From NCBI GenBank assembly GCA_964360605.1, contig CAYHXN010000001.1, positions 15,494-79,387 on the forward strand: a stretch of 63,894 nucleotides of DNA, read 5' to 3'. The notes under the pieces were generated by a model. That model was not told where the DNA came from, did not search any database, and was given only the letters and a program-made list of their open reading frames with translations. The position numbers were made by a program, and so were the translations under genes. Source of the stretch: an uncultured Candidatus Saccharibacteria bacterium (lineage in GTDB: Bacteria > Patescibacteriota > Minisyncoccia > UBA6257 > WO2-44-18). Within the stretch, counting starts at the first letter, position 1. Every line of letters starts with the position of its first letter. This document shows positions 41,501-61,342 of this stretch, piece after piece.

Positions 41501-42418
41501 TTATAAAAACTTACGCACATCCGTTGCGTCAAAACGCGGAATTAAAAACGGGTGATCGTTAAGAGATACTCCTCTCCGCTCAATAGTAAACGCGTAACGA
41601 AAACCTTCTCCAGCTAAAATAGTTTTAGCTAATTCACCGTAACGTCCATGGGGATAGGAAAAGGTTTCTGGTTTTTTTCCTATCAGCCCCGTCAATACTT
41701 CTTGGGAAATCTGAAGTTCGTTTTTCATAACTGATTCGTTAATGATGTCAAAAGCGTAGTGGCTGTGCGAATGATTACCGATGGTCATGCCACGTTTCTG
41801 TAAATCTAAAATCTCCTTCGGGCTCATGAAAAGCTCTTGAGCAATCTTTGCTTCATCCAAATGAATCTGCTTGAAACAAAAACGCAAAAACTGGGCTTTG
41901 ATGTCTTCGGGAAGCGCAATCAATGTTTCTTTCATATTGGCAGTCATCGGTTCTTCGTGCGGACGTCGTTCCATTAATCGCCGGTCTTTCGGAATGCGGT
42001 ATCGTTCCGCTAAGTCAGGATAAAATTCGTCCATAAAGCCATGAATAGCATCAATCATGGCGGAAGCGGACATCCGAGACAATAAGATGTGGGTTTTATG
42101 AGCAACCGGCAACCTACCTTCATAGACAGAAGTAATCGGAAAAAAGGCGGCGGTAGCGCCGTATTTTTCCAATATAGGAAGTGCATTGATATATTGGTCT
42201 TTCAATCCATCGTCAAAAGTAATGGCGCAGAATGATCCGGGACGATTCGCTTTAGCGGCTTCACAAACTTCCGTCGCGGAAACGATTTTGTAACGGGAAG
42301 ATAGCAAGCTGATCTGCCAATCAAATTCTTTAATCTCGCAAGGATAAATACCGGAAAACTTTGGATTCGGGTCTTCAACGTAATGATAATTAACGATTAT
42401 GTACTTATCTTTTTCCAT
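41501..42418 (-). CDS. Polysaccharide deacetylase (NodB-homology domain)
   Basis: ITFDDGLKDQY and GNHSHSHY motifs. Start set at MEKDKY (42418). Confidence 0.8.
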   Translation of the reverse strand: MEKDKYIIVNYHYVEDPNPKFSGIYPCEIKEFDWQISLLSSRYKIVSATEVCEAAKANRPGSFCAITFDDGLKDQYINALPILEKYGATAAFFPITSVYEGRLPVAHKTHILLSRMSASAMIDAIHGFMDEFYPDLAERYRIPKDRRLMERRPHEEPMTANMKETLIALPEDIKAQFLRFCFKQIHLDEAKIAQELFMSPKEILDLQKRGMTIGNHSHSHYAFDIINESVMKNELQISQEVLTGLIGKKPETFSYPHGRYGELAKTILAGEGFRYAFTIERRGVSLNDHPFLIPRFDATDVRKFL

Positions 42419-43772
42419 TTTGATTCTTGGTATTTGATATGATTTTATCCAGAAAATCCACACTGCGCTTATAAGAAAGACCGTCAGTAAAACCTACGTA
42501 CGATTGTACAATCTGCCGACGCTCCTCCCGATCTGCTTCTGGATTCTCAAGATAAAAATTAATTAACCGCGGCAAATCCTCGTCAGTCTTGGCCAGACGA
42601 ACCGCCCCGCTGCGGTAAATCGGCTCATAATGATTGAATTCGTACGCTAGCGCGAAGCGGCCCAGAAAACCGATGTTGATTATCGGCTTATTAAACACGC
42701 AGGCCTCAATAGAAATAGTGGAAGCATAATTAATATTTAAATCGGTGTATTTCAGAGAATACTTAAGGTTTAAAAGATCTTTGTAATTCATTTCTACTCG
42801 CCCATCCGTTCCCGATCCTGATTTTTCAATATATAAATCCGGTACGGCAAAAAATTCTCGGTAATTTTCATAAATATCAAGCGGGTGAATCCGAACGAAT
42901 AAATTAACATAAGGAATTTTTTTATCCTCTCTTAATTTAATTAAGTCATGAATATATTTTTTTTGAAAAGGGTAGGCCTTAGTCACGGTTGTATGAAAAA
43001 TCGTCCGGTAAGCCGGATTAAGGCCTTTGGATTTTAAAAATTCTTCGCGCGTTGGTTCGTTTGGAATATTTCCAAAATAAGGATCGAAGCGCGGCGTTCC
43101 GGAAACAAAAACCCGATCCGCAGAATAACGATGAATATCTATGGCTTCTTGTTTCATAATTTCGTTCCAAGCCACTAAATAATTCGTCTTACGGATGTGT
43201 TTGCAATTCATTGTTAAGTTGTCCCAGCTGAAATTCACGGCCACGGTAGGTATACGCAATCGCCGGGCTTCGTTGATAATTTCCGCTTCCCATCCGTCAA
43301 ACCCCGGCGTGGCAGTCGCAATCAAAGCCGGCTTATGTTCTGCCGCTAACTGCCGGAAAGCTCTAGCTTTGGGCGCCAAAAGCCGTTCTAAATTTGTGAA
43401 AAAATCCGCGGTTAGTAATTTCGCGAATGGCTTCCCTAAAAAACGTAGCAACCGCCGTTTTCGGTTCTCCAAATAATTCGGCCGTTTGTACCAATGCCGA
43501 ATAGAAATCAAATAATCAAATTCATTCACCAAAGAAATTCTCAGAAATTTTAAAAATTCCCAAAATTTTGGGTTGGCAGACAGCAATTTCACATAACTTA
43601 AATCCGGCGATTGGAAATAACCGCGACTTACCGCCGTTTCGGAATCAATAGTCGGATTAATAACAACTACCCGATATTGGTCGACTAAGTATTGAATATA
43701 GTTAGTGCGTAAAAGATCGCTGGCGGCTATGGGATTGGGTATAACTAAAAATAAAGAGGTTTTCATAATCAA
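42405..43772 (-). CDS. TagB/TagF-like GT-B protein, paralog 2 of 4
   Basis: LFVRIHPLD, TDLNINYASTISIEACVFNKPIINI and NPEADREERRQIVQSYVGFTDGLSYKRSVDFL. In tandem with paralog 3. Confidence 0.5.
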   Translation of the reverse strand: MIMKTSLFLVIPNPIAASDLLRTNYIQYLVDQYRVVVINPTIDSETAVSRGYFQSPDLSYVKLLSANPKFWEFLKFLRISLVNEFDYLISIRHWYKRPNYLENRKRRLLRFLGKPFAKLLTADFFTNLERLLAPKARAFRQLAAEHKPALIATATPGFDGWEAEIINEARRLRIPTVAVNFSWDNLTMNCKHIRKTNYLVAWNEIMKQEAIDIHRYSADRVFVSGTPRFDPYFGNIPNEPTREEFLKSKGLNPAYRTIFHTTVTKAYPFQKKYIHDLIKLREDKKIPYVNLFVRIHPLDIYENYREFFAVPDLYIEKSGSGTDGRVEMNYKDLLNLKYSLKYTDLNINYASTISIEACVFNKPIINIGFLGRFALAYEFNHYEPIYRSGAVRLAKTDEDLPRLINFYLENPEADREERRQIVQSYVGFTDGLSYKRSVDFLDKIISNTKNQNGKR

Positions 43773-43775
43773 AAA

Positions 43776-45131
43776 TTAAATTATTTTAGATAAGAGGTCT
43801 ACGTTACGCTGATAGGATTTTCCGTCTTGGAAAGCGAAAAACTTCTCGGCCACGCGTTTCCTGTTTCCCGAGTCCCGGGTAGGATTTTTGATATAGCTAT
43901 TAATGGCGGCTATCAAATCATCGTCATTTTGAGCGACAAAAACTGCTTTTTCGCGAATTAGCGGATAATAATATGATCCTTCATCAGAGTAATGCTTATT
44001 TTGAAAAAGCGCTGCCGGATCCATAAAATTAATTACCGGTTTGTCAAACAAAAACGATTCCAGCGAAATAGTGGATTTATGATTGATATTAATCTCGGTG
44101 TATGCCAAAGTTGCTTTTAAATTAATAAAGGAGTTTTTGGCGGACTCGCCCGGCGCAAATTCTTTATTAGCTTTAGTTAATCGCTCAATAGAAATGTCCT
44201 TTTCTCCGGCTAACGGACGATAAAATTCCGGGTCATCAAAAGGGTGAGGACGAACTAAAAAATTCACCCAAGGAATTTTCTTTTGATTTCTAGCAGAAAT
44301 AATTTTAGCCAAAACCTCCGGTTGGCGAGGAGCTCTGCCGCCGGACGCAAACAAAAGAGTGGGGTATTGGGGATTTAATCCCTTACTGGTTAAAAAGTCT
44401 TCGCGCGAAGGAAGCGGATGAGATTTATCAAAATATTTGTCAAATCTCATGCTGCCGGTTATAAAAATTTTTTCCGCAGGAAACCGGTGCACTTTCATAG
44501 CCGCTTCCTTAAGAACCTCGTTCCAAACAAACAAATAATCGGGCCTTCTGGACCTGACGCATTTAAACGAGGTGAGATTATCCCAGCTTAAATTTGTGGC
44601 TAAAGTCGGAATGCCAATTTTTTTTCCATAAAGAATAATTTCGGCATCAAAAATTTGTATGCCGGGCGTAGCGGTAACAAATAAACTGGGTTTGTATCTT
44701 TTGCAATATTCTTCCAATACTCTTGAGCGGCCCATTAAAAATGCTTCCAAACCAGTAAAAAAATTAATGGTCATCCAGCGAGCGAAGGGGGCTGAAAGCC
44801 AACGGAGTAACTTGGCCCGTTTGTCATTCTGAAAAGCCGGACTCCCATAATAAAATTGTAAACTGGAAACTTTACTAAATTCCCGAATGCAGGCAGTTCT
44901 TAAAAATTTAGTCACGGCAAAGAGCCGCGGATTCTGGACCGTCCAGCGAATGGACTCCGCGCCTACAGAAGCTAAGCGCCGGCTCACTTCTTCGTCAATG
45001 ACACTGCTAAAAACTAATACTTTATATTGAGAAGCCAAATATTGAATATAATTTGTCTTCAAAAGATCGGAGATAAATAAGGGATTTTTTAAAAAAAGAA
45101 AGATGGCTTTCTCGCGTTTGAGGTCTTGCAT
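43776..45131 (-). CDS. TagB/TagF-like GT-B protein, paralog 3 of 4
   Basis: FLVRPHPFD, TEININHKSTISLESFLFDKPVINF and NPTRDSGNRKRVAEKFFAFQDGKSYQRNVDLL. The start is set at MQDLKREK (45131) to avoid overlapping the divergent gene at 45175. Confidence 0.5.
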   Translation of the reverse strand: MQDLKREKAIFLFLKNPLFISDLLKTNYIQYLASQYKVLVFSSVIDEEVSRRLASVGAESIRWTVQNPRLFAVTKFLRTACIREFSKVSSLQFYYGSPAFQNDKRAKLLRWLSAPFARWMTINFFTGLEAFLMGRSRVLEEYCKRYKPSLFVTATPGIQIFDAEIILYGKKIGIPTLATNLSWDNLTSFKCVRSRRPDYLFVWNEVLKEAAMKVHRFPAEKIFITGSMRFDKYFDKSHPLPSREDFLTSKGLNPQYPTLLFASGGRAPRQPEVLAKIISARNQKKIPWVNFLVRPHPFDDPEFYRPLAGEKDISIERLTKANKEFAPGESAKNSFINLKATLAYTEININHKSTISLESFLFDKPVINFMDPAALFQNKHYSDEGSYYYPLIREKAVFVAQNDDDLIAAINSYIKNPTRDSGNRKRVAEKFFAFQDGKSYQRNVDLLSKII

Positions 45132-45174
45132 CACTGGAAAATTATGCCATATCGCGTTAATATAATCAAATAAA

Positions 45175-45894
45175 ATGACTGCTAAAAAAATCCAAGTTTT
45201 AGGAATAATCCCCGCCCGCGGCGGCTCTAAAAGCATTCCTTATAAAAACATAGCTGATGTCGGAGGAAAACCGCTAATTTATTACACAATCCGTGAGGCC
45301 AAAAAATCCAAACTTCTGGACGCTTTTATCGTTTCCACTGACGATCCCAAAATTGCGGCGGTAGCAAAAAAGTATGGCGCGGACGTCCCTTTTTTGCGGC
45401 CAGCGAAAATTTCGGGCGATCGATCAATAGACATTGAATTTATGCGCCACGCCCTAGACTGGGTCAAAAAAAATCGCGGCTGGGAACCGGAAATTTTAGT
45501 AAACTTACGCCCCACTTCTCCGCTCCGAACCGCCGAAGATATTAATAAGGTCATTGAAGTGGCGATAAAAAATAAGTGCAGTATCGTCAAAACTATTTCA
45601 CTGCCAACACCCTATAATCCGTTTAAAATGTGGTTGTTGGACGAAAATGGGGTAACCATGCAGCCGCTTTTACAAACAAAGCATTATAAGAAACTCGGCA
45701 CCGATGTTCCAAGGCAAATTTTGCCAAAAGCCTATTGGCAAAATGGGCTCGTAGACGCGTTGCGAGTTAAGAATATAAAAACCGGAACCATTTTTGCCGG
45801 TCCAATCGGAGGAGTCATTACTGATCCGGAGAAATCAATTGATCTTGATGAACCCCGCGATTTAAGAATTCTAGCCAAGAAGTTAAGAAGCTGA
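45175..45894 (+). CDS. Acylneuraminate cytidylyltransferase family (CMP-nonulosonic/ulosonic acid synthetase), copy 2
   Basis: VLGIIPARGGSKSIPYKNIADVGGKPLIYYTIREAKKSKLLDAFIVSTDD...RPTSPLR. Confidence 0.88.
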   Translation: MTAKKIQVLGIIPARGGSKSIPYKNIADVGGKPLIYYTIREAKKSKLLDAFIVSTDDPKIAAVAKKYGADVPFLRPAKISGDRSIDIEFMRHALDWVKKNRGWEPEILVNLRPTSPLRTAEDINKVIEVAIKNKCSIVKTISLPTPYNPFKMWLLDENGVTMQPLLQTKHYKKLGTDVPRQILPKAYWQNGLVDALRVKNIKTGTIFAGPIGGVITDPEKSIDLDEPRDLRILAKKLRS

Positions 45895-45939: not shown

Positions 45940-46710
45940 CTAAAGAGCTGTCCAACCGCCATCAACGATAAGATTTGCTCCGGTCATATAACTAGAAGCA
46001 TCGGACGCAAGAAACAAAATAGCGCCGTTGTATTCGTCCTTATTAGCCATTCTACCAAGAATAGTTCGGTCGCTATATTTTTTTACGAATTCCTGTTTTT
46101 GTCCCGCAAGAACTCCTCCCGGAGTAAGAGTGTTCACCCGAATACCGGTATCGCGCAAATAAGACGACAAACTGCGAGTGAAGTTGGGTACGGCACCCTT
46201 AACGCTGGAATAGCCAATTGATTTGAATTTACCCTCGTCATAAATCCGGTTATCGGGGGCTACTATGCCGTAGGTGGAACAAACATTAATAATCGAACCG
46301 CTCCGCTGTTTTTTCATTATTGGGATCACCGCTTGCGCGCAGATCAACATTCCGGTTAAACCGACGGCAATCTCTTTATTCCAAAGTTCAATCGGATAAT
46401 CTTCGTATGGGCTGAATTGTTTTGCTGATTCATCGGTATTCGGGACTGGATTCATCGCCGCGTTATTAATAAGAACATCAATCCGCCCAAGCTTGTTAAC
46501 TACGTCCCGCACCGCCTCATCCACGGATTTTTTCTGGGCAACGTCTACTTTGTAATATAGAAAATTGGGTTCGGAAAAACCTTCTTTGATGTCAAACAAA
46601 ACTACCTTAGCGCCGACGCCAAAAAGGACTTTCGCGTATTCCATACCCAACATACCGGTACCACCGGTGATTAGAACTACTTTATCTTTTAGAGAAAAAA
46701 GGTTGTTCAT
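45940..46710 (-). CDS. Short-chain dehydrogenase/reductase
   Basis: KVVLITGGTGMLGMEYA, NNAAMNP and YSSVKGAV (YxxxK). Confidence 0.85.
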   Translation of the reverse strand: MNNLFSLKDKVVLITGGTGMLGMEYAKVLFGVGAKVVLFDIKEGFSEPNFLYYKVDVAQKKSVDEAVRDVVNKLGRIDVLINNAAMNPVPNTDESAKQFSPYEDYPIELWNKEIAVGLTGMLICAQAVIPIMKKQRSGSIINVCSTYGIVAPDNRIYDEGKFKSIGYSSVKGAVPNFTRSLSSYLRDTGIRVNTLTPGGVLAGQKQEFVKKYSDRTILGRMANKDEYNGAILFLASDASSYMTGANLIVDGGWTAL

Positions 46711-46711
46711 A

Positions 46712-47716
46712 TCATAATTGTATAACTTTTTTATTTTTTATGGAGTCTTTCATTGTTAAAGCGATTTTCAATACCTCAGCGCCTTGCTCAAGACTAATCA
46801 ACGGATTTTCTTTCTTCTCAATACAGCTAATAAATTGTTTGGTTTCATCAAGAAACATCGAGTTTCTTTCAAATTCCGCCGGCTCTTTTACGAAAACCGA
46901 TTGGCTTCCGGCTTCAAACGGAATCAAGACTAAGGTTTTATCCTGATAATCCCAAATCATCCTACCCTTGCTTCCAGTAATTTCAAACCGACGCTTTGAC
47001 GGACGCTTGACGTAGTCCATATGAAGCGAAGCGGTGACTCCGGATCCGAATTGAAAAATTGCATCAACAACGCTATCTACTTCAATCTTCAACTCACTGT
47101 CTTGGTTTTCAAAAGCCACTACTTGCTTCGGCATACCGAAAAACCAATAAAGATAGTCAATGTCATGACTTTGGGTTAAGATAACTCCCCCACCTAGATC
47201 CGCGCGGGCCGCATAAGTTTTTAAATAATCTTCCCAGGAATGCCAGTCCGGCAGATATTCTCCAATTTCCGCGTGCGCGCTCAAAGCTCTTCCTATCTTT
47301 CCGCTATCAAGCCATTTTTTCATTTGTTGGAGTAATGGATGGAAACGGAAATTATAACCGACGTAACCGACTAAATTTTTCTTTTTAGCAAGCGAGATTA
47401 ACTCTTCTACGCCCTTCATGTCGTGCGACAATGGTTTCTCAAGAAAAACGTGCGCTCCACTCTCAATCGCTTTTTTGGCAGTTTCTAAATGAAAGGCGGT
47501 CGGATTAGTAATCACGACTGCGTCAGGTTTTTGCGCTAAAGCTTCATCAAAATCATAAAAAACTTTGGGGTTGTGTTCTTTAGAAAAATTGTCTATGAAA
47601 TCTTTATTGCAACCCTTTTGGGTACGATAAACTATGATATCGCCCGCTCTCAATTGTTTCAGATTACGATAATGCCTTTGACCAATAGAACCGAGACCGC
47701 AAACCAAGAATTTCAT
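46712..47716 (-). CDS. Gfo/Idh/MocA-family oxidoreductase
   Basis: MKFLVCGLGSIGQRH...AVVITNPTAFHLETAKKAIESGAHVFLEKPL. Start set at MKF (47716). Confidence 0.8.
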   Translation of the reverse strand: MKFLVCGLGSIGQRHYRNLKQLRAGDIIVYRTQKGCNKDFIDNFSKEHNPKVFYDFDEALAQKPDAVVITNPTAFHLETAKKAIESGAHVFLEKPLSHDMKGVEELISLAKKKNLVGYVGYNFRFHPLLQQMKKWLDSGKIGRALSAHAEIGEYLPDWHSWEDYLKTYAARADLGGGVILTQSHDIDYLYWFFGMPKQVVAFENQDSELKIEVDSVVDAIFQFGSGVTASLHMDYVKRPSKRRFEITGSKGRMIWDYQDKTLVLIPFEAGSQSVFVKEPAEFERNSMFLDETKQFISCIEKKENPLISLEQGAEVLKIALTMKDSIKNKKVIQL

Positions 47717-47751
47717 ACAGTCATATAATATGAACACAAATTCACTTTGTC

Positions 47752-48798: not shown

Positions 48799-49314
48799 TT
48801 AAACATCTAATTTAGCATCTTTTGCCATTAAAATCATCTCTGCTATTTCTCTAACTGCGTGCTGTCCGCCATTGGCTTTAGAAACATAGTTAGCCGATGC
48901 CTTAACCAAGGGATGTCCGTCCGCAACCGTCAGAGCTAAACCGGCATACTTTAAGCATAAAAGGTCGTTAATATCGTCCCCTATGTAAGCAACCTCGCTC
49001 TGAGACAGATTGTTTTCTGCGACAATCCTTCTTAAAATCTCCAGTTTGCCTTCCCCGCTTTCAATTCCCTGCCAAACAGGGATGTTTAATTTTTGACAGC
49101 GTGCCGCCACAACAAAATTTTTCTCTTTAGATAAAACCCCGACCATCAAGCCGTTCTTTTTAAGCAGCTCTATTCCCAAACCATCTTTCCGGCTGCAACG
49201 AACCGATTCTTTGCCATTCTCATCAACATATAAAAAACCGTCGGTCATTACGCCGTCAAAGTCAGTGGCCAATAACTTGATTTTTGCGAATTTAGCTTTT
49301 AATGCGGCATCCAT
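48799..49314 (-). CDS. KdsC-family HAD-IIIA phosphatase (ulosonate-phosphate phosphatase)
   Basis: LLATDFDGVMTDG...VAYIGDDINDL...GGQHAVREI in 171 aa, typical of KDO-8-P and KDN/Neu5Ac-9-P phosphatases. Confidence 0.8.
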   Translation of the reverse strand: MDAALKAKFAKIKLLATDFDGVMTDGFLYVDENGKESVRCSRKDGLGIELLKKNGLMVGVLSKEKNFVVAARCQKLNIPVWQGIESGEGKLEILRRIVAENNLSQSEVAYIGDDINDLLCLKYAGLALTVADGHPLVKASANYVSKANGGQHAVREIAEMILMAKDAKLDV

Positions 49315-49400: not shown

Positions 49401-51341
49401 ATGTCAACTTCAGCGTTAAAAAGGGTGCAGAAGAACCAAAACCTGTTGTATTACGCAGTTAATCATTATTTAAATTCGGAAAAGGAGGATTTGAAACTAA
49501 GTGAAAAGATCGTCAGTGGTTATAAAAAACTGCGCGGATTGTTCAAAGAATTAACCGCTCCTCAAACTATCCAAGCGCCTAGATTAAATTTGGAAGATTA
49601 TAAAAAAACTCCTTATTTTTCCACACTTGTAAAACTTTCCAAGCTGGCAAAAACCGAACTTGCTCCTTATATTAAAACTTTTTTTGTTCACGGCAGTTTG
49701 GCGACCATGGATTTTGTTCCAAAATTCAGCGATTTAGACACGCTAGTAATTTTGAAAAAAGAAACTTGTTCAAATCCCGAAAAACTCCAAGAGTTTCGCG
49801 AAAAACTCGTTAGGGCAAGAAAATTGCTCCAAGAAGTGGATCCGTTGGCACACCACGGGTTTATTTTTTGCGCCGAACAAAACTTAGACTATTACCCCCA
49901 GCATTATTTACCGGTTGCGGTTTTAAAATACGCTAAAATTTTACACGGCGTCGCAAAGCTAACCTTCCGTGTTCGTGATTCCCGCGAAGAAGCAAAAGAA
50001 AATTTTTATCACTATTACAATATCTTCCAAGACATTACAAAAACCGGCCAGATAACAAACAAACACGGCAGTGAATTATATAAATTCAAATGGTTTGTGA
50101 GCATGCTCCTTTTAATGCCCAGCCTATATCTTCAAGCCAAAGGAATTTATCTCTATAAAAAATATTCTTTTGATTTCGTGAAGCACCCGTTTTTATCCAA
50201 ACTTAGCTTGGTAAGAAAAGATTTTCAAAACGCTAAAAAGATTTTGGGCGACAACTATCTTAAAAAAGCGGTGGAGATGTTGGTGGATTGGGCATCTGAT
50301 CTGCAACAGTTAGAAAAAGACCCGAAATTTATCAACAATCCCAAGAAAATTGCTGTAAAAGTTTACGAAAGAGCCCGAAAAGAATTAATTAATCATTTCC
50401 AAAAAAATAACGACGTGGTCGCGCTTTACGAATATGGTTCGGTGCGCGCTCCGGGAATCAGCGACCTTGATCTAATTTTGGTGACGAAAAACCACCTAAA
50501 AAATCGATTCTATTATCCATCTGGCCCAAACATTGAAAAAGTTGCCAAAGGAACTCTGATGATGATGCCAGAAAATACCTTCTCTCAAATAAAGATGTTT
50601 GACGCAGTGCGTTTAAGAAAACTCTATGGAAAGTCCGTACCGCTCGCCAAGTTAGACAAAAAAACCGAGGGTTACCGAGAAATTGCCAGCGTCATTGACT
50701 GGCTTCCAGAAAGAATGATCCGATTGATTGGCATCCTAAAATCCAATCCCTTAGACGTTCAATACGCCTTGCGTTATACAAGGTCTTTTGCCTACTCGCT
50801 GGAACGGGCAGAAAAATTAACGCGCTTAGGCGCTTACGGAGAATTTATGCGTCGTCTCCGCGATCTCCGTGGCCGATGGCATCCTTCACGAGTTTCCGAA
50901 CTTACTTTGTTAATCAAAGATGGACTTTATCTTGGCTATGAAGCCCTGACCAAGTTTACAGAAAAATATTGCGGCGGATTTCAGGGTTCAACGGGACGTC
51001 TTACTTTTTTCTCAGGACAAATTTTGGAATTCTCCAAAAATCCCGCCGAGGTCTCTGCTGACTGGTCTCTCGCTTTTTCCAAAACCGAAGAAAAAAAGGT
51101 ATTTACTCCCGCGGCCTTGGCGGCTCAATTTACTGTTTATTCTAAACAACCCGGGGTTCTCGCTAAAGAGATGCGCCGCAAACTTCTACTCTCCGGCCCC
51201 ACCGAAATTATTGACGCTGGCTACCGAAATTTTTTGATAAAAAAAATGGCGCTTGCCACCCAATGCGCCGAATTTCTAATTAAGAACAAACTTAATTCGG
51301 GCCTCTATCGTTTCGGATTTTATCTTCCTAAACAGAAGTAG
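49401..51341 (+). CDS. Uncharacterised 646-aa protein with two pol-beta-type nucleotidyltransferase-like motifs
   Basis: Two GS...DxD signatures, FFVHGSLATMDFVPKFSDLDTLVIL and LYEYGSVRAPGISDLDLILV, each followed by a helical region. I recognise no other family. It is one of the few plus-strand genes in the window, and its 3' end overlaps neuB2 by 14 nt. Confidence 0.4.
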   Translation: MSTSALKRVQKNQNLLYYAVNHYLNSEKEDLKLSEKIVSGYKKLRGLFKELTAPQTIQAPRLNLEDYKKTPYFSTLVKLSKLAKTELAPYIKTFFVHGSLATMDFVPKFSDLDTLVILKKETCSNPEKLQEFREKLVRARKLLQEVDPLAHHGFIFCAEQNLDYYPQHYLPVAVLKYAKILHGVAKLTFRVRDSREEAKENFYHYYNIFQDITKTGQITNKHGSELYKFKWFVSMLLLMPSLYLQAKGIYLYKKYSFDFVKHPFLSKLSLVRKDFQNAKKILGDNYLKKAVEMLVDWASDLQQLEKDPKFINNPKKIAVKVYERARKELINHFQKNNDVVALYEYGSVRAPGISDLDLILVTKNHLKNRFYYPSGPNIEKVAKGTLMMMPENTFSQIKMFDAVRLRKLYGKSVPLAKLDKKTEGYREIASVIDWLPERMIRLIGILKSNPLDVQYALRYTRSFAYSLERAEKLTRLGAYGEFMRRLRDLRGRWHPSRVSELTLLIKDGLYLGYEALTKFTEKYCGGFQGSTGRLTFFSGQILEFSKNPAEVSADWSLAFSKTEEKKVFTPAALAAQFTVYSKQPGVLAKEMRRKLLLSGPTEIIDAGYRNFLIKKMALATQCAEFLIKNKLNSGLYRFGFYLPKQK

Positions 51342-52389
51342 GCCAATTAGCCGATTCTCCAGGCAGTAAATCGTCTTCAGCGAGGTCTTTTTGCGCGATA
51401 CGGCCGATTAGTTGCGGAATCAATGACGGCTTTAATCCGCTACCCGGCCCCTTGGTAGTTAACATGTCCGTTGTTATTGCCACGCCTTTAGGAATAGCCT
51501 TTTTCGCCACCACGCTTTTAGCCAGACGAATCCGGACTTCTTTTTCTTTATCGTTAATTAATTTCTCGCCATTCCCCAAAGCCGATTGAGTGTGACGAAT
51601 GTACTTAATCATTTTTTCCAAACCCTGTGGCTCCAAAGAAGCGGCGTGATCTGGACCAATCATGGTTCTGTCTATCGTAAAATGTTTCTCAATAACACAA
51701 GCCCCCAAAGCTACCGCCACCGCCGGAATAGCCACCCCCTTATCGTGACTAGAATAACCTACCGGCATACCAAAACGCTGTTTTAAGGTATCTATTACCC
51801 GCAAATTAACTTCTTCGTCTTGGCAGGGATAGTTGGAAACGCAGTGCAGTAAAATTAGTTGGTTGTTGTATTTAATAATTACCTTTACTGCTTCACTAAT
51901 TTCTTCAAGCGTAGCCATTCCGGTAGATAAAATCACCGGTTTCTTCTTCCTGGCGATATATTCCAATAAAGGAATGTTAGTAACATCCGCCGAAGCAATT
52001 TTAAAGAAAGGAACATCCAGCTCTTCAAGAAAATCCGCGCTTTTCAGATCCCAAGCGCTTCCAGAAAATAAAATATTTTCCCCGACCGCGAACTTTTGTA
52101 AATCCCGCCAATCCTCTTTAGAAAGCTCTAATTTTGCCCGATGCTCGCCGTAAGTCGGGCCCAAAGCGGTTGGCTTAATGTACGGAGCCGCCAAAGCGGC
52201 TTTTGTTAAAATGTCTTCGTTGGTTCGTTTTTGAAATTTCACCGCGTCGGCGCCGGAAGCCGCGGCGATTTCAATAAGTTTCTTAGCTAGAGCTGGATCA
52301 CCGTTATGATTCACTCCAGCTTCAGCGATAATAAAACACGGCTGTCCATCGCCCACTAATTTCGTGCCAATTTTAATTGTAGAGTTCAC
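51328..52389 (-). CDS. neuB: N-acetylneuraminate (nonulosonic acid) synthase, canonical NeuB with SAF domain
   Basis: CFIIAEAGVNHNGDPALAKKLIEIAAASGADAVKFQKR, HCVSNYPC, GYSSHDKGVAIPAVAVALGACVIEKHFT and a C-terminal SAF-like domain. Confidence 0.9.
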   Translation of the reverse strand: MNSTIKIGTKLVGDGQPCFIIAEAGVNHNGDPALAKKLIEIAAASGADAVKFQKRTNEDILTKAALAAPYIKPTALGPTYGEHRAKLELSKEDWRDLQKFAVGENILFSGSAWDLKSADFLEELDVPFFKIASADVTNIPLLEYIARKKKPVILSTGMATLEEISEAVKVIIKYNNQLILLHCVSNYPCQDEEVNLRVIDTLKQRFGMPVGYSSHDKGVAIPAVAVALGACVIEKHFTIDRTMIGPDHAASLEPQGLEKMIKYIRHTQSALGNGEKLINDKEKEVRIRLAKSVVAKKAIPKGVAITTDMLTTKGPGSGLKPSLIPQLIGRIAQKDLAEDDLLPGESANWPTSV

Positions 52390-57060: not shown

Positions 57061-58395
57061 TTAAATATTTTCTAAAATAAAATTTGCGATCCTTTGTCCA
57101 GCGGCGCCGTCTAATTTATAAACCTGCTCTTCTAAAACAGCTTGCCGCTGATTACGATCAGCTTGGGGATTAGATAAAAACTCTCGAACATTTTGAAATA
57201 GTTCTTCTTTATTGCGAGCCGGTCGCGCCCCGCCACCCCTTAACACATATTGAACGTGATCAAAATCTTTATTTTTAATAGCACTTTTAAGATACGGCAA
57301 GTTCTTTTCAAAACCATCAAAATAAATTAGAACGGACGGCTTTCCAAAAACCGCGGCGTCAATTACGACACTGGTTCCGCAGGCAACCAAAACGTCGCTA
57401 TGAAACAAAGAGTCGGCAAGCCACTCCGTATCTTTTTCGTCCAATTCAGAATCCCTAGAATAACCAGTTTTAAATTGATGCCCCGGCTGGTCAACGTAAA
57501 ATAGCTTGCTTGGCTTAAATCGCTCCAAGTTTACCTTATCGTTGGGGGTAAGACGAACTAGTACCTGCTCATTTAATTCTTTCAGAATCTCCATAATTTG
57601 CCAATCGTACTTAAAGAAACGGTCGCCGAAAGGAGAAAATAAAATTAGTTTTCGGGAAGGATCTAATCCGATACGCGAAAAAAATTCCTGCCGGTTCATT
57701 CGTCGGCCGTTGAAATAACGGTCGTACTGAGGAATTCCGCTGACAAAAACTTCTTCTAATTTCATAACATTGTGGCGAATGGCTTCGTTTTGAATTATGG
57801 CGTTATGTACTATTAACTTTTCGGGCTTAACACGAAATATGCCCTTGGTGGTTATATTGTCCCAAGAACGAATCATTCCAATAGCGCGAATCTCTCTTTT
57901 TCTAGCGGCGGCTAAAAAATGCACGTCGTCGTTATTAAAAACGTCCGTTACAAATACAGCAGCCGGTTGATACTTACTAAAATATGAATCTAAGTTTCTG
58001 GTATTAACACACAGACCGTCCAAAAATCTAATTAATTTTTTAAACGAATTAAACCTGCTAAAAATTTTTCTTAAAATAAAAGAAAGGGCAAATTTAAAAT
58101 AATTTTTATCGCGCCCCAGCTTTTCTCTTTTATGTATTGCTAAAGTTTGGCTATCTACTAAAGAAGAATTTAGATAAGTGAAAATAACGTCTTGCCGGCT
58201 TACTTTTTCGGCAACGATTCCTTCAATAGTCACGTTGGACCCAAAAAACCGTTCTTGAAAATAGTTTGTTTTGTAATCAGGAACAAAAATAACAATCCGT
58301 AAATCAGATTGCGATTTTAATATCTTAAAAACGTCGGTAGCAAGAATATTGCGCGAGATAAAAGGGTTAAAACTGGTTATAAACAAAGTTTTCAT
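57061..58395 (-). CDS. TagB/TagF-like GT-B protein, paralog 4 of 4
   Basis: MKTLFITSFNPFISRNILATDVF (compare paralog 1, MKTIFITIFQGVEAKNILRTDIY), SDVLVACGTSVVIDAAVFGKPSVLI and NPQADRNQRQAVLEEQVYKLDGAAGQRI. Confidence 0.5.
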   Translation of the reverse strand: MKTLFITSFNPFISRNILATDVFKILKSQSDLRIVIFVPDYKTNYFQERFFGSNVTIEGIVAEKVSRQDVIFTYLNSSLVDSQTLAIHKREKLGRDKNYFKFALSFILRKIFSRFNSFKKLIRFLDGLCVNTRNLDSYFSKYQPAAVFVTDVFNNDDVHFLAAARKREIRAIGMIRSWDNITTKGIFRVKPEKLIVHNAIIQNEAIRHNVMKLEEVFVSGIPQYDRYFNGRRMNRQEFFSRIGLDPSRKLILFSPFGDRFFKYDWQIMEILKELNEQVLVRLTPNDKVNLERFKPSKLFYVDQPGHQFKTGYSRDSELDEKDTEWLADSLFHSDVLVACGTSVVIDAAVFGKPSVLIYFDGFEKNLPYLKSAIKNKDFDHVQYVLRGGGARPARNKEELFQNVREFLSNPQADRNQRQAVLEEQVYKLDGAAGQRIANFILENI

Positions 58396-59210
58396 TATTT
58401 GGGAACCTCAATGATGGGCATTAACTTGTCTCGTCTTGTTTTGTTCTCTAAATAATTTTTCAGCATTCCATTAATAAAATTTTCTTTAAGCTTTAAGATG
58501 GCGGCGCCATTATAGTCCTTTTGTTTATAAAACTTCCCGGCGTCAAAACGCTGGGTTTGCGGGACAATTACTCCTTCATCGTAGCCGCGAATACAGCGAA
58601 TCAGCAACTCAAATCCGGAAATGACATTCTTATTGCTGATGTCTCTGGGGCCATCGTCTTTATTTACATTTTCCGGCCTAGATTGCCCCAATACGTCGCC
58701 ACTGTCTAATTTTTCAGTTACTAAATGAATCGTTGCTCCTAAACACTCGGGTTCGCTATTCACTAGTGGCCAAAAGGCATTGGCCCAACCTCTATAATAA
58801 GGCGTGAGGCCAAGATGTAGATTAATAATTTTCCCTTTATAAACAGAGAGGATTGCCCCCTTAACAACGCTGGCACTGAATAAAACGACGTATCTCGGAT
58901 TTAATTTTTGTATCCATTCTAAAATCTTCGGATCACCGCAAGTGCCGTAATCAATTCTTAAAATTTTTTCTTCCGGCAAAGGAAATTGAGTGGCATAACC
59001 GAAATATTCTTGTTCTTTTTCGGCGCATTCGCGATCGTAATCCTTAATTACCTTATCTTCTTCCGGCGTATCTCCGGATTTTAGGACTCTTCTACTCTCG
59101 GAAACCACGCCTAATAAATTGAAGTTGCGTTTTAAATAATCGGCCGCCATATGATGACGCCCTTGGTTGGAAGTAATTAAAATAATTGGGATAGATGATG
59201 GTTGATTCAT
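58395..59210 (-). CDS. Formyltransferase-family protein (N10-formyl-THF-dependent, atypical)
   Basis: IINLHLGLTPYYRGWAN...GATIHLVTEKLDSGDVL fits the Asn/His...Asp pattern of the formyl_trans_N domain. At 271 aa it is neither a typical Fmt nor a PurN. Confidence 0.65.
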   Translation of the reverse strand: MNQPSSIPIILITSNQGRHHMAADYLKRNFNLLGVVSESRRVLKSGDTPEEDKVIKDYDRECAEKEQEYFGYATQFPLPEEKILRIDYGTCGDPKILEWIQKLNPRYVVLFSASVVKGAILSVYKGKIINLHLGLTPYYRGWANAFWPLVNSEPECLGATIHLVTEKLDSGDVLGQSRPENVNKDDGPRDISNKNVISGFELLIRCIRGYDEGVIVPQTQRFDAGKFYKQKDYNGAAILKLKENFINGMLKNYLENKTRRDKLMPIIEVPK

Positions 59211-59213
59211 AAT

Positions 59214-60026
59214 TTAAGTCCGTTGTTTGTTTTTTGTGGCCGACAAAGAACATAATTGGTAAAAATTTTGGAATAACGCCGCGACTAAAATAGGGCCAGT
59301 GCCGCCCGGAGTAGGAGTATAAAAACCTAGCTTAGATAATTCTGGGTCACTGACGTCTAAATCACCGCGAACCTTTCCGTCAATCCGATCGTAGCCAAAA
59401 TCAATCACTCCCGCGCCGGCCTTCAAGGCCGCTGGTTTAATCAAACTAGCCTTGCCGACGCCGCTAATTACCAAATCAGCCCGAGATACTTCGGAAAGCC
59501 CACTTTTACTGTGGCAAACAATCAACTCGCGGCACTTCCCATTCAGCCAACTAATAATCGGCGCGCCGACTAGAAATCCTCGTCCTACTACCACTACAGT
59601 AAGGTTTTCTATGTTCCAAAATACTGTTTCTAAAATTGCCTTAATAACAATGACCGGCAAAGATTCTAAATCGGCTGGAGCAATTAGGGCATCAATATCT
59701 TTAGCCGGATTCAAAGCTGCGAGAATTTTATCACGATTAAAACGTGCGGGCAACGGAAGCTGAACCAGTACTCCGCCAACCCTTTCATCATTTCCTAAAT
59801 ATTTCATCTTCTGAATTACTTCACCTTCGGTAGTATCTTCGGCAAAACGATAAAGCTTAAATTTTAACCCCAACTCTTGAGCGGTTTTTTCTTTTTGTCG
59901 CAAAAAACTCTCGGATGAAAGGTTGTTCCCAATTAGAACCGCGGCCAATTCTTGGTCCGGCTTAGGTAAACCTTTTAAAGTAAAAATGATTTTGCGGGCA
60001 ATGTCCCGTCCCAAAATTACCGCCAT
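59214..60026 (-). CDS. folD: Bifunctional methylenetetrahydrofolate dehydrogenase/methenyl-THF cyclohydrolase
   Basis: LAAVLIGNNLSSESFLRQKEKTAQELG..., VLVQLPLP, VVVVGRGFLVGAPI and TPTPGGTGP. Confidence 0.88.
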   Translation of the reverse strand: MAVILGRDIARKIIFTLKGLPKPDQELAAVLIGNNLSSESFLRQKEKTAQELGLKFKLYRFAEDTTEGEVIQKMKYLGNDERVGGVLVQLPLPARFNRDKILAALNPAKDIDALIAPADLESLPVIVIKAILETVFWNIENLTVVVVGRGFLVGAPIISWLNGKCRELIVCHSKSGLSEVSRADLVISGVGKASLIKPAALKAGAGVIDFGYDRIDGKVRGDLDVSDPELSKLGFYTPTPGGTGPILVAALFQNFYQLCSLSATKNKQRT

Positions 60027-61264
60027 TTTTTAGAAATCGGAAACGCGCGGCATAACGCCTCGACTTCGGCGCGTATTGATTCGCGCTTTACTAAACATCT
60101 ATAAATGAAAGCGGCGATTTTCTTCATTTCCTGTTTACCCATGCCACGAGTAGTCACAGCCGGAGTACCTAAACGCAAACCCGATGGCAGAAAAGGCGAG
60201 GTGTCTCCAGTAATGGCATTACGGTTGGCGGTAATGCTATTTTCTTCCAAAATCTTTTCCGCCTGGAGACCCCCTAAACCCACACCGCGAACATCTAATA
60301 ACATTAAGTGGTTGTCTGTACCGCCGGTTACTAGCCGGAAGCCTAGTTTCACTAATTCTCCCGCTAACATAGCGGCATTTTCTAAAATCGATCGTTGATA
60401 GCGACGAAACAACGGTTGAGACGCTTCAAAAAACAACAGGGCTTTGGCCGCGGTGACATTATTATGGGGACCACCCTGAAATCCCGGAAACACTGACCGG
60501 TCTACTGCTTCCGCAATCGTCAAATCCGACCGACCCGTTAAAGGTTGTTTTCTAGAAAAGATTACCGCCCCTCTTGGTCCGCGAAGCGTTTTGTGAGTAG
60601 TCGTCATTACGACATCGCTATAAGGAAATGGTGTGGGGTGCAAACCAGCAGCAATCAGGCCGGCGATGTGGGAAATATCCGCCAAGTGGTAAGCGGTGAC
60701 ACTCCGCGCAATCATGCCAAACTTTTTAAAATCCAAAATGCGAGGATAAGCCGTCAATCCAGAAACAATCACTTTGGGCTTGTGTTTTTTAGCTAGAGCC
60801 GCAATCGCACGATAATCCAAACGTTCAGTTTTAACATCCACGCCGTAGTGGACAACACGATAGGCCTTACCGGAAAAACTGACCGAATGCCCATGCGTTA
60901 AGTGTCCGCCATCGCTTAAGCGCAAACCCATTAAAGTATCGCCGAAATTCATCAATGCTTGGTAAATCGCTAAATTAGCAGGCGAACCTGAATATGGCTG
61001 GACGTTGACCGCCCACTCCTTAGGATTTAATTTGAAAAGACGCAATGCCCGCTCTTGAGCTAAATTCTCAATCTTGTCGTAGTAAACATTGCCCGGATAA
61101 TAACGCTTGCCGGGATAACCCTCGGAATACTTATTAACCAATGGCGATCCTAAAACTTCCTGTATGTCTTCGGAAACGTAATTTTCTGAAGGAATCAAAT
61201 TAATCGTTAGCGCTTGACGTTTTTTTTCGGCAGCAATGAACTTAAAAAGCTGTGTATCTTTCAT
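60017..61264 (-). CDS. glyA: Serine hydroxymethyltransferase
   Basis: LIPSENYVSEDIQEVLGSPLVNKYSEGYPGKRYYPG, VVMTTTHKTLRGPRG and GFQGGPHNN. Start set at MKDTQ (61264). Its stop overlaps the folD start by 10 nt. Confidence 0.95.
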   Translation of the reverse strand: MKDTQLFKFIAAEKKRQALTINLIPSENYVSEDIQEVLGSPLVNKYSEGYPGKRYYPGNVYYDKIENLAQERALRLFKLNPKEWAVNVQPYSGSPANLAIYQALMNFGDTLMGLRLSDGGHLTHGHSVSFSGKAYRVVHYGVDVKTERLDYRAIAALAKKHKPKVIVSGLTAYPRILDFKKFGMIARSVTAYHLADISHIAGLIAAGLHPTPFPYSDVVMTTTHKTLRGPRGAVIFSRKQPLTGRSDLTIAEAVDRSVFPGFQGGPHNNVTAAKALLFFEASQPLFRRYQRSILENAAMLAGELVKLGFRLVTGGTDNHLMLLDVRGVGLGGLQAEKILEENSITANRNAITGDTSPFLPSGLRLGTPAVTTRGMGKQEMKKIAAFIYRCLVKRESIRAEVEALCRAFPISKKWR

Positions 61265-61342
61265 ATTCCAGTGATTAAAATTTAACACACCAAAACGACT
61301 TTTTCTACTGAAAATTAATGACCGGAAAACAATTTAAAATGA

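What the first reader, a model, noticed from the sequence alone, without database searches (positions are those of the whole stretch)
42405..45131. Four TagB/TagF-like paralogs but no CDP-glycerol or CDP-ribitol synthesis genes; the cytidylyltransferases present are both NeuA-type
**Seen.** Four paralogous 440-460 aa GT-B proteins are present: 20262..21614, the tandem pair 42405..43772 and 43776..45131, and 57061..58395. They share x(R/I)xHP/QPxD, (T/S)D(V/L)xIxYxS(T/S)(I/M)SI(D/E)AxVF(D/N)KP(V/I)IN and a C-terminal NPxxDRxxRxxxxExxxxxxDGxxxxR tail reminiscent of teichoic acid glycerophosphotransferases.

I found no TagD-like (HxGH) or TarI/TarJ-like genes and no TagGH exporter. The only CTP-dependent enzymes visible are two acylneuraminate-cytidylyltransferase-family proteins. 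One of them (45175..45894) is divergently adjacent to the tandem pair, with only 43 bp between the starts.

**Inference.** These enzymes may polymerise or attach something other than glycerol phosphate, for example a CMP-activated ulosonic acid or another phospho-linked unit.
Basis: partly seen in the sequence, partly recalled or inferred. Interest (0 to 1): 0.6.

Follow-up and report, generated by a model that had tools for sequence, protein, structure and literature searches.

The report
TagF-fold candidate sialic-acid-type sugar transferases
Four related enzymes (a fifth lies elsewhere in the genome) of a tiny uncultured Patescibacteria bacterium are labelled teichoic-acid glycerophosphotransferases in public databases, but they most likely attach sialic-acid-like nine-carbon sugars to a surface glycan; they belong to a very large family with no biochemically characterised member that I could find.

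Summary
Four paralogous soluble GT-B proteins of 444-455 aa lie at the stated coordinates, and a fifth lies on contig C6. They are 18-40% identical. The 641-kb genome (88.6% complete) has no TagD, no TarI/IspD and no TagG-type ABC-2 permease. No TagD reaches its cut-off in any of 401 genomes of the class.

- Among NCBI's curated families, the best match is NF046086, the Tannerella forsythia Pse/Leg-derivative transferases. All 30 aligned members hit it, but all below its cut-off. Only one member each hits TarF or TarL, at E about 1e-4.
- In the class sample, 72 of 79 genomes with the family encode NeuB, against 44 of 322 without it.
- Family genes are interleaved with NeuB, NeuC and CMP-transferase genes.
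- Members in Rhizobium, Polaromonas and a Rickettsiales genome sit inside neuB-neuC-neuA operons.

Best reading (0.62): these are CMP-nonulosonate-dependent glycosyltransferases built on the TagB/TagF fold.

Caveats:
- No biochemical test of any member was found.
- B. subtilis SpsB, a TagB-domain protein in a legionaminic acid operon, is not needed for Leg transfer.
- The His of the "HP" motif is kept only in the clade of the tandem pair (22/22) and mostly lost in the other clade (6/45).

Earlier notes of this scan reach the same reading in other genomes. Interest is moderate.

The parts
42405..43772 (-). Paralogue 2 (455 aa, TTG start). Clade A, with the R-x-H-P motif intact (VRIHPLD). Its start lies 3 nt after the stop of paralogue 3.
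43776..45131 (-). Paralogue 3 (451 aa). Clade A, HP intact (VRPHPFD). The AF2 model shows a GT-B fold with pLDDT 90.7. It is divergent from the cytidylyltransferase gene.
20262..21614 (-). Paralogue 1 (450 aa). Clade B, with Gln in place of the HP histidine (VRFQPND). It lies between a transaldolase/SIS sugar-phosphate block and the carrier-protein aminoacyl module.
57061..58395 (-). Paralogue 4 (444 aa). Clade B, with Thr in place of the HP histidine (VRLTPND). Its start overlaps the formyltransferase stop by 1 nt, and a methyltransferase gene follows 2 nt downstream.
45132..45174 (.). 43-bp divergent intergenic region between paralogue 3 and cytidylyltransferase 2. It has -10-like hexamers on both strands.
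45175..45894 (+). Cytidylyltransferase 2 (CTP_transf_3). Its best NCBIfam hit is PseF at 131 bits, below the cut-off. Presumed CMP-nonulosonate synthetase of set 2.
45940..47737 (-). SDR and Gfo/Idh/MocA oxidoreductases of nonulosonate set 2.
48799..49314 (-). KdsC/YrbI-family phosphatase (TIGR01670, 117.9 bits against a cut-off of 106.95; Kdn-9-P phosphatase model, 107 bits). Points to a phosphorylated-intermediate route.
51328..52389 (-). NeuB2, a nonulosonate synthase (PF03102, 299 bits; NeuB_NnaB, 376 bits against a cut-off of 399.65).
3079..4200 (-). NeuB1, a nonulosonate synthase (PF03102, 243 bits).
9203..9943 (-). Cytidylyltransferase 1 (CTP_transf_3; PseF model, 185 bits against a cut-off of 205.7).
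9924..11105 (-). NeuC, the hydrolysing UDP-GlcNAc 2-epimerase (TIGR03568, 356 bits, above the cut-off of 235.9).
41501..42463 (-). Polysaccharide deacetylase directly downstream of paralogue 2. This pairing recurs in other genomes.
58395..61288 (-). SHMT, FolD and a formyltransferase, translationally coupled to paralogue 4. They could supply and transfer a formyl group to an amino sugar (inference).
1531..2637 (+). Distant GT-B relative (368 aa) with an RPHPRD motif, next to NeuB1. PF04464 29 bits, NF046086 38 bits, family HMM 26 bits.
3..932 (-). 3' part of a second distant GT-B relative (415 aa at C1:15178-16425) with an RFHPGD motif.

Best explanation
The four paralogues, plus a fifth on contig C6, are cytoplasmic, peripheral GT-B glycosyltransferases built on the TagB/TagF scaffold. 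Their donors are CMP-activated nonulosonic acids made by the two NeuB/cytidylyltransferase sets of this locus, not CDP-glycerol or CDP-ribitol.

Each paralogue belongs to an old, separately conserved subfamily. Each probably adds a nine-carbon acid, or one chemical variant of it, in one particular linkage to a growing lipid- or protein-bound surface glycan.

The sugars are more likely of the Neu5Ac/Kdn type than Pse/Leg. A true NeuC and a KdsC-type phosphatase are present, and no DegT/PseC aminotransferase is.

What is shown:
- fold and family relations
- absence of teichoic acid supply genes
- co-occurrence and synteny with NeuB, NeuC and NeuA genes

What is inferred:
- the donor
- the conserved N-domain Trp-Asp (D184) as catalytic base
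- the invariant Arg (R294), with the His of R-x-H-P where present, as the binder of the CMP phosphate
- one linkage per paralogue
For: 1. The model has a GT-B fold (pLDDT 90.7). The proteins have no TM segments.
2. NF046086 is the top NCBIfam hit for all 30 aligned members (best E 5e-28). TIGR04396 hits 25 of 30. TarF and TarL each hit one member, at E about 1e-4.
3. NF046086 is built around Tanf_01245 and TFUB4_00887. Knock-outs of these lose the terminal Pse or Leg derivative, and complementation restores it (PMC5420450).
4. The genome has only NadD and a CoaD-like protein in PF01467, no IspD hit and no ABC2_membrane hit. TIGR01518 (TagD) is over its cut-off in 0 of 401 genomes of the class.
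5. In the class census, the family is present in 79 of 401 genomes. NeuB is present in 72 of those 79, against 44 of the other 322 (odds ratio 65, Fisher p = 4.5e-40, not corrected for phylogeny).
6. In 9 of 9 long-contig relatives, family genes are interleaved with NeuB, NeuC, CMP-transferase and KdsC homologues.
7. Full-length members in Rhizobium sp. WL3, Polaromonas sp. YR568 and a Rickettsiales MAG sit inside neuB-neuC-cytidylyltransferase operons. These are Proteobacteria, which to my knowledge do not make wall teichoic acid.
8. No Maf, GT42 or GT52 candidate was found in the genome. If that holds, two complete CMP-nonulosonate pathways would otherwise have no transferase.
9. The tandem pair is divergently adjacent to a cytidylyltransferase gene, 43 bp away.
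Against: - No biochemical assay of any member turned up in the literature searches, and all similarity to NF046086 is below its cut-off (47-76 bits against 200).
[quoted passage not shown] Linkage to nonulosonate genes therefore does not prove the donor.
- The HP histidine is absent from paralogues 1, 4 and 5 and from 39 of 45 clade B sequences. From my own knowledge, this residue matters for activity in both sialyltransferases and TagF.
- No D/E-D/E-G sialyltransferase motif is conserved.
- Three genomes with strong family hits (G395, G253, G266) have neither NeuB nor CTP_transf_3. In two of them the family genes lie on short contigs.
- Co-occurrence could simply reflect shared residence in large glycan islands.
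- The fold search is not discriminating: UDP-GlcNAc 2-epimerases rank above TagF and TarL.
Confidence: 0.62

Rival explanations
1. Split function. Only the HP-bearing clade A (the tandem pair, paralogues 2 and 3) transfers nonulosonates from CMP donors.
For: - His is present in 22 of 22 clade A sequences but only 6 of 45 clade B sequences. The Rhizobium outgroup keeps HP, so the loss is derived.
- Only the tandem pair is adjacent to a cytidylyltransferase gene.
- Paralogue 1 lies next to transaldolase-like and SIS sugar-phosphate genes.
- Paralogue 5 lies next to GT4-like-looking genes and methyltransferase homologues (the GT4 reading is by eye and was not scanned).
- SpsB provides a precedent.
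Against: - Clade B keeps every other invariant residue: W183, D184, G226, D231, R294, P365, R424, D436 and R442.
- Clade B members also hit NF046086 as their best family.
- Clade B members are just as interleaved with NeuB and CMP-transferase genes in other genomes.
Confidence: 0.2
2. They are genuine TagB/TagF-type phosphotransferases that build a phosphodiester-linked (teichoic-acid-like) polymer. The CDP-activated alcohol or sugar would come from a non-canonical enzyme, for example the NTP_transferase at 37012-37839, the HIT/GalT-like protein or the 646-aa double nucleotidyltransferase.
For: - All four pass the PF04464 gathering score.
- A family profile hits TarL (8va1) at E = 3.9e-6.
- TagF and TarL appear among the structural matches.
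- The locus holds CsbB/GtrB-like GT2, GT-C and YfhO-like genes. In Firmicutes such genes decorate teichoic acids (the Firmicutes role is my own knowledge).
- Several nucleotidyltransferases in the locus have unknown specificity.
Against: - No TagD, TarI or TagG in the genome, and no TagD over its cut-off in 401 genomes of the class.
- No LCP ligase in the genome.
- Scores against the TarF and TarL equivalog models are about 20 bits against cut-offs of about 550.
- The loop that I expect to carry the catalytic His in TagF holds Trp-Asp here. The TagF motif is from memory and was not verified.
- Family members occur in Proteobacterial O-antigen- or capsule-type loci with neuBCA.
Confidence: 0.1
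3. They are not transferases. They would be GT-B-fold sugar-nucleotide epimerases or hydrolases acting within nonulosonate biosynthesis.
For: - UDP-GlcNAc 2-epimerases, including NeuC, are the top structural matches (TM about 0.55, E about 5e-12).
- Some Proteobacterial homologues carry precomputed PF02350 hits.
- The family profile hits WecB weakly (E = 0.099).
Against: - None of the window paralogues hits PF02350 at E <= 0.01.
- A bona fide NeuC is already present.
- Five or more specialised paralogues per genome is typical of linkage-specific transferases rather than of pathway enzymes (inference).
- The characterised relatives are transferases.
Confidence: 0.04

Closest known systems
Tannerella forsythia Tanf_01245 / TFUB4_00887 / BFO_1060 (NCBIfam NF046086, 'BFO_1060 family glycosyltransferase'): Pse5Am7Gra and Leg-derivative transferases of the S-layer O-glycan
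   Same: - About 445 aa, soluble, with a TagB-superfamily / GT-B domain.
- Encoded beside a CMP-nonulosonate pathway.
- It is the best-scoring curated family for every member tested (PMC5420450).
- An HP motif is present in clade A.
   Different: - Scores are 47-76 bits against a cut-off of 200, so these are not members by NCBI's criterion.
- No conserved D/E-D/E-G motif.
- The HP His is lost in clade B.
- Five or more specialised paralogues per genome, rather than the single gene described there.
- The host is a Patescibacteria bacterium. No outer-membrane or Bacteroidota-type O-glycosylation genes were noticed in the window, but neither was searched for specifically.
- The donor sugars are probably Neu5Ac/Kdn-type rather than Pse/Leg.
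TagB/TagF/TarF/TarL CDP-polyol phosphotransferases (Pfam PF04464; structures 3L7I-3L7M for TagF and 8VA1 for TarL)
   Same: - GT-B fold.
- Weak PF04464 membership over the C-terminal domain.
- Shared G-x-P-R-x-D-like linker motif, the R/K-x-H-P strand and the DG....R C-terminal helix.
- Public annotation names the orthologues 'CDP-glycerol glycerophosphotransferase family protein'.
   Different: - No CDP-glycerol or CDP-ribitol synthesis genes, and no TagG or LCP in the genome (TagH was not searched).
- Scores against the equivalog models are about 20 bits against 550.
- The N-terminal domain cannot be aligned to TagF or TarL by sequence.
- The presumed base loop carries Trp-Asp rather than His.
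- The second His is not conserved.
Bacillus subtilis SpsB and SpsB-like proteins (TagB-domain proteins in the sps legionaminic acid / spore crust operon)
   Same: - TagB-like GT-B proteins encoded next to nonulosonate biosynthesis genes.
- The Priestia megaterium plasmid homologues score 64-72 bits against the family HMM.
   Different: - They are more distant.
- They keep a His (Q-H) in the loop where this family has W-D.
- The spsB deletion does not abolish Leg transfer (PMC7439481), so the function of SpsB is itself unknown.
Bacterial GT-B sialyltransferases (CAZy GT38, GT52, GT80) and beta-Kdo transferases KpsC/KpsS (GT107)
   Same: - CMP-ulosonate donors.
- GT-B-type architecture.
- An HP motif that contacts the CMP phosphate (my own knowledge, and as cited in PMC5420450).
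   Different: - No Pfam hit to GT52 (PF07922) or Capsule_synth (PF05159) in the window proteins. PF07922 and the non-GT-B family GT42 (PF06002) also gave no hit in the genome, and those two searches had no positive control.
- No D/E-D/E-G motif.
Teichulosonic acids of Actinobacteria (phosphate-free Kdn-containing wall polymers; S. coelicolor cluster SCO4873-SCO4882)
   Same: - An anionic surface polymer based on a nonulosonate instead of phosphate, in a monoderm.
- This locus has a KdsC-type phosphatase and a NeuB, as expected for a Kdn-type route.
   Different: - No LCP ligase in this genome.
- I could not check whether the Streptomyces cluster contains members of this family.
- The polymer here is hypothetical.

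Membership tests
Pfam PF04464 Glyphos_transf (TagB/TagF) | HMM score at or above the gathering cut-off (22.1 bits) | tested here: met
   Scores are 37.7, 22.6, 44.8 and 36.8 bits. Only profile positions about 130-366 of 367 are matched.
TagB/TagF/TarF/TarL teichoic acid enzymes (NCBIfam equivalogs) | Score above the equivalog cut-off (for example TarF, 550 bits) | tested here: not met
   TarF scores 21 bits for paralogue 1 only. Across the 30 family members, one hits TarF and one hits TarL, at E = 1e-4 to 6e-4.
TagB/TagF/TarF/TarL teichoic acid enzymes | Second active-site His (TagF H584, aligned to TarL H433 in M-H-P-F) | tested here: not met
   His is present in paralogues 2 and 3. It is Gln in paralogue 1, Thr in 4 and Pro in 5. 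Across the family it is present in 27 of 66 sequences. The TagF residue number is from my own knowledge.
TagB/TagF/TarF/TarL teichoic acid enzymes | Catalytic base His in the N-terminal domain (TagF H444 / TarL H300) | tested here: inconclusive
   The N-terminal domain does not align to TarL by sequence. The loop after the equivalent strand carries an invariant Trp-Asp (65 of 66 have Asp), where SpsB-like proteins have Q-H. No structural superposition was available.
TagB/TagF/TarF/TarL teichoic acid enzymes | Donor supply (TagD, or TarI/TarJ) and TagGH export in the same genome | tested here: not met
   PF01467 hits are only NadD and a CoaD-like protein. No IspD hit is over the cut-off. No ABC2_membrane hit. 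TagD is absent at its cut-off in 401 genomes of the class. TarJ and TagH were not searched. The genome is 88.6% complete.
NCBIfam NF046086 BFO_1060 family (Pse/Leg-derivative transferases) | HMM score at or above 200 bits | tested here: not met
   Scores are 49.3, 74.0, 76.4 and 47.3 bits. It is nevertheless the best NCBIfam family for 30 of 30 members.
NCBIfam NF046086 BFO_1060 family | Encoded beside a CMP-nonulosonate biosynthesis locus | tested here: met
   The window holds two NeuB genes, NeuC and two cytidylyltransferases. The same holds in 9 of 9 relatives with long contigs and in three Proteobacteria.
NCBIfam NF046086 BFO_1060 family | D/E-D/E-G and HP motifs (as described in PMC5420450) | tested here: not met
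   No conserved [DE][DE]G column. HP is present only in clade A.
NCBIfam TIGR04396 'surface carbohydrate biosynthesis protein' | HMM score at or above 125 bits | tested here: not met
   32.7 and 59.4 bits for paralogues 2 and 3, and no hit for 1 and 4. 25 of 30 family members hit it below the cut-off.
Sialyltransferases (GT42, GT52), Maf, and KpsC/KpsS | Pfam membership (PF06002, PF07922, PF01973, PF05159) | tested here: not met
   The Pfam scan of the paralogues gave none of these. The genome searches were negative. The PF06002 and PF07922 searches had no positive control.
CMP-nonulosonate-dependent glycosyltransferase (functional class) | Transfer of a nonulosonate from its CMP donor to an acceptor | not testable with these tools
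   This needs an enzyme assay or genetics.

The most novel reading that the evidence does not exclude
Patescibacteria appear to lack the teichoic acid machinery: no TagD reaches its cut-off in 401 genomes of the class, and this genome has no TagG or LCP. They may use sets of five or more specialised TagF-fold enzymes to assemble a phosphate-free, nonulosonate-rich anionic surface polymer. This would be a functional counterpart of teichoic or teichulosonic acid, built from Neu5Ac/Kdn-type sugars that are then re-acylated, formylated and methylated by the neighbouring genes. In this reading the HP-less clade B would stabilise the CMP leaving group without the histidine considered important in sialyltransferases and TagF.
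Probability: 0.15. Interest if true: 0.7.

Novelty: new variant of a known kind. Interest (0 to 1): 0.42.

Why it matters
Enzymes that attach sialic-acid-like sugars are known for only a few bacteria, as Tomek et al. note (PMC5420450). This family has about 3,200 clusters (50% identity) at E <= 1e-30. It spans Patescibacteria and Proteobacteria, and earlier notes of this scan report look-alikes in archaea and other phyla.

It is either unannotated or named 'CDP-glycerol glycerophosphotransferase'. That name would wrongly suggest teichoic acids in organisms that lack the pathway.

If the inference is right, about a fifth of the sampled genomes of this class decorate their surface with nonulosonates. 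Some devote roughly a tenth of a 0.64-Mb genome to the task, which bears on how these episymbionts contact hosts and evade phages. The family would also supply new linkage-specific transferases for glycoengineering.

The clade-specific loss of the HP histidine gives a concrete mechanistic question to test.

Tried and rejected
- Sequence search of PDB with paralogue 3 alone gave no hit. The same search with P0031, a possible bridge to TagF, also gave none.
- The profile search of PDB reached only the C-terminal domain of TarL, at 29 bits. The TagF H444 equivalent could therefore not be placed by alignment.
- Foldseek against PDB returned a generic GT-B ranking, with epimerases above TagF and TarL. 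It does not discriminate. Model coordinates are not exposed, so I could not map the conserved residues in 3D.
- The search for related loci with the 30-sequence alignment failed because it had no conserved stretch of 7-10 columns.
- A second word-based homologue search with the alignment added nothing new.
- Pfam on seven proteins of 1,000-1,500 aa from the representative search, most with two or three matched stretches, found no informative partner domain. A Rosetta-stone argument was therefore not possible.
- Literature searches for Patescibacteria plus nonulosonic acid and for TIGR04396 found nothing.
- The wall-polymer (LCP-ligated) version of the model lost support when no LytR-CpsA-Psr protein was found.
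- A Pse/Leg-type donor became unlikely when no DegT/PseC aminotransferase was found by tblastn.

Full report
**Observation**

The window is C1:15494-79387 of a 641-kb, 38-contig assembly that is 88.6% complete. Orthologues of the flagged genes are named after Parcubacteria, and earlier notes of this scan place the genome in the Patescibacteria.

The four ORFs are present on the minus strand exactly as described. The third has a possible longer form starting at 45236. That form would overlap the divergent cytidylyltransferase gene. Orthologues of 435-457 aa align from the ATG at 45131, so the 451-aa form and the 43-bp divergent spacer are right.

The paralogues are 18-40% identical to each other. 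A family HMM finds exactly five members in the genome: the four in the window and C6:1891-3258. It also finds two very distant GT-B relatives that flank NeuB1 at the start of the window.

**What the proteins resemble**

All four pass the Pfam Glyphos_transf gathering score, but only weakly (22.6-44.8 bits) and only over the C-terminal two thirds of the model.

Against NCBI's curated families the picture differs.
- The best hit for each is NF046086, the 'BFO_1060 family glycosyltransferase' (47-76 bits).
- TIGR04396, 'surface carbohydrate biosynthesis protein', comes second.
- TarF appears once, at 21 bits against a cut-off of 550.
- Across a 30-member alignment, 30 of 30 hit NF046086, 25 hit TIGR04396, and one each hits TarF and TarL at E about 1e-4.

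BFO_1060 is the strain FDC 92A2 orthologue of Tanf_01245 and TFUB4_00887. These TagB-domain proteins lie beside the CMP-Pse and CMP-Leg loci of Tannerella forsythia. Their deletion removes the terminal Pse or Leg derivative from the S-layer O-glycan, and complementation restores it (PMC5420450).

All of these similarities are below the curated cut-offs. The window proteins are relatives of that family, not members.

An AlphaFold2 model of paralogue 3 is confident (pLDDT 90.7, pTM 0.88) and shows a two-Rossmann GT-B fold with a helical insertion at about residues 68-146. Foldseek against PDB returns generic GT-B matches. UDP-GlcNAc 2-epimerases come first (TM about 0.55), with TagF and TarL at ranks 29-32. 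The fold alone does not discriminate.

**Is a teichoic acid pathway available?**

No.
- The only two PF01467 proteins in the genome are NadD and a CoaD-like protein.
- IspD/TarI gives nothing above its cut-off.
- The ABC-2 permease family of TagG is absent.
- LytR-CpsA-Psr ligases are absent.
- In a sample of 401 genomes of the same class, the TagD equivalog model reaches its cut-off in none. The best score is 99 bits against 165.

The positive controls rang for all of these families. TarJ and TagH were not searched separately.

**Genomic association**

In the same 401 genomes, a profile of the family matches at E <= 1e-10 in 79. It is usually present in several copies clustered on one contig. 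NeuB occurs in 116 genomes.

| | NeuB present | NeuB absent |
|---|---|---|
| Family present (79) | 72 | 7 |
| Family absent (322) | 44 | 278 |

The odds ratio is 65 and Fisher's p is 4.5e-40, uncorrected for phylogeny.

Of the seven exceptions, two are marginal family hits. Two have CTP_transf_3 genes, one of them within 6 kb of the family gene. Three have neither NeuB nor CTP_transf_3, and in two of those the family genes lie on short contigs.

I fetched the clusters of ten relatives. In all nine with long contigs, family genes are interleaved with homologues of the window's NeuB1/2, NeuC, cytidylyltransferases, 2-hydroxyacid dehydrogenase and KdsC-type phosphatase. Recurrent direct neighbours are a polysaccharide deacetylase and two polytopic membrane proteins of about 632 and 489 aa.

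The family also exists outside the phylum.
- A full-length member (208 bits against the family HMM) on a Rhizobium sp. WL3 plasmid follows neuB-kpsF-GT-neuC-neuA directly.
- Its orthologue in Polaromonas sp. YR568 lies in a neuA-neuB-neuC-neuA-wzx-GT2 operon.
- A Rickettsiales member lies between neuC and a second cytidylyltransferase gene.

To my knowledge Proteobacteria do not make wall teichoic acid.

No Maf, GT42 or GT52 candidate exists in the genome. The last two searches lacked a positive control. If they hold, two complete CMP-nonulosonate pathways would otherwise have no transferase.

**Which sugars?**

Set 1 has a NeuC above its equivalog cut-off (356 bits), NeuB1 and a PseF-like cytidylyltransferase. 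Set 2 has NeuB2 (376 bits against the NeuB model), a KdsC/YrbI-family phosphatase, SDR and Gfo/Idh/MocA oxidoreductases and the second cytidylyltransferase.

tblastn with two DegT/PseC queries finds no such aminotransferase in the genome. Canonical Pse/Leg routes are therefore unlikely, and Neu5Ac-type and Kdn- or 9-phosphate-type routes are more likely. This is an inference.

The deacetylase, the formyltransferase with its own SHMT and FolD, several methyltransferases and the carrier-protein aminoacyl module would then diversify the sugars. This too is an inference.

**Active-site analysis**

In a 66-sequence family alignment, the invariant or near-invariant residues are W183, D184, G226, D231, R294, P365, R424, D436, G437 and R442, in paralogue 3 numbering.

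The profile alignment to TarL places the family's R-x-H-P on TarL's M-H-P-F. By my knowledge this corresponds to TagF H584 and to the 'HP' motif of sialyltransferases.

That histidine is not conserved. A tree separates the family into two clades:
- clade A holds the types of paralogues 2 and 3, the tandem pair
- clade B holds the types of paralogues 1, 4 and 5

Each window paralogue is closer to orthologues in other genomes than to its in-genome paralogues. His is present in 22 of 22 clade A sequences but only 6 of 45 clade B sequences. The Rhizobium outgroup keeps it.

No D/E-D/E-G motif is conserved. The N-terminal domain could not be aligned to TagF or TarL. SpsB-like proteins have Q-H in the loop where this family has W-D. 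That is compatible with Asp replacing the TagF-type catalytic His, but it is not shown.

**Interpretation**

The most economical reading is that these are CMP-nonulosonate-dependent glycosyltransferases on the TagB/TagF scaffold, each subfamily making one linkage or handling one sugar variant (confidence 0.62).

A serious variant (0.20) is that only clade A does this and the HP-less clade B uses another donor.

A true phosphotransferase role with a non-canonical CDP donor (0.10) is not excluded. The locus has several nucleotidyltransferases of unknown specificity and CsbB/YfhO-like genes. However, this reading lacks any supply, export or ligation gene.

An epimerase-like, non-transferase role is unlikely (0.04).

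The main caveat comes from the literature. B. subtilis SpsB, a TagB-domain protein in the legionaminic acid operon, is dispensable for Leg transfer (PMC7439481).

**Novelty**

The family is large: 3,196 clusters at E <= 1e-30 and 6,895 at E <= 1e-10 among the representatives at 50% identity. Every public name I saw for it is either 'hypothetical protein' or 'CDP-glycerol glycerophosphotransferase family protein'.

The idea that TagB-like proteins transfer nonulosonates dates from 2017. Earlier notes of this scan reach the same reading for look-alike genes in other genomes. Those notes are not independent evidence.

- the class-wide census
- the absence of TagD across the class
- the Proteobacterial operon contexts
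- the five old subfamilies
- the clade-specific loss of the HP histidine

I rate it a new variant of a known kind, of moderate interest.

Noticed in passing
window 15080-16978 (632 aa, about 7 TM segments) and 61806-63275 (489 aa, about 6 TM segments): Two polytopic membrane proteins with essentially no Pfam match recur directly beside family members in other genomes. Examples are G395 (paralogue-5 type, then 489 aa, then 632 aa) and G076, G297, G178 and G105. They may be the polymerase, ligase or oligosaccharyltransferase of this glycan system.
   Followed up: partly
C6:1-11000 (outside the window): The fifth paralogue lies in a second glycan cluster. Two ORFs follow it, one of them (C6:1198-1881) a homologue of the window's methyltransferases. 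Upstream are a 464-aa hydrophobic protein that looks like a Wzx-type flippase and four ORFs that look GT4-like. This is judged only by blast against window proteins and by eye. It was not scanned against Pfam.
   Followed up: partly
window 1-63894, whole locus: Nearly all of the 64-kb window, about a tenth of the assembled genome, encodes glycan biosynthesis. The closest orthologues of its genes (for example 701 bits in G297) are in a different order of the class. Within the window's own order only 2 of the 18 other sampled genomes have the family. This suggests that the island moves horizontally among Patescibacteria.
   Followed up: no
window 5777-6664, 6712-7659 and 47779-48726: Three EamA/DMT transporters sit inside the two nonulosonate sets. 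One of them also hits the TPT family, which from my own knowledge includes nucleotide-sugar transporters (42 bits). Their role is unknown. Possibilities are flipping of a lipid-linked sugar or uptake of a precursor.
   Followed up: no
Protein-representative hits P0047, P0065, P0066, P0073, P0088 and others: Many proteins of 900-1,550 aa contain two or three matched stretches of the family core. Seven of them have no informative Pfam hit: five have none, and two have only a weak Glyco_transf_4 match. They could be polymerase-like multi-module enzymes. Their origin and context were not examined.
   Followed up: partly
   Followed up: no
window 8246-9187: A D-2-hydroxyacid dehydrogenase lies beside cytidylyltransferase 1. 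It is conserved next to NeuB1 homologues in G297, G133, G178, G073 and G105. It could supply a glyceroyl- or lactyl-type acyl group, as in the Pse5Am7Gra of T. forsythia. This is speculation.
   Followed up: no
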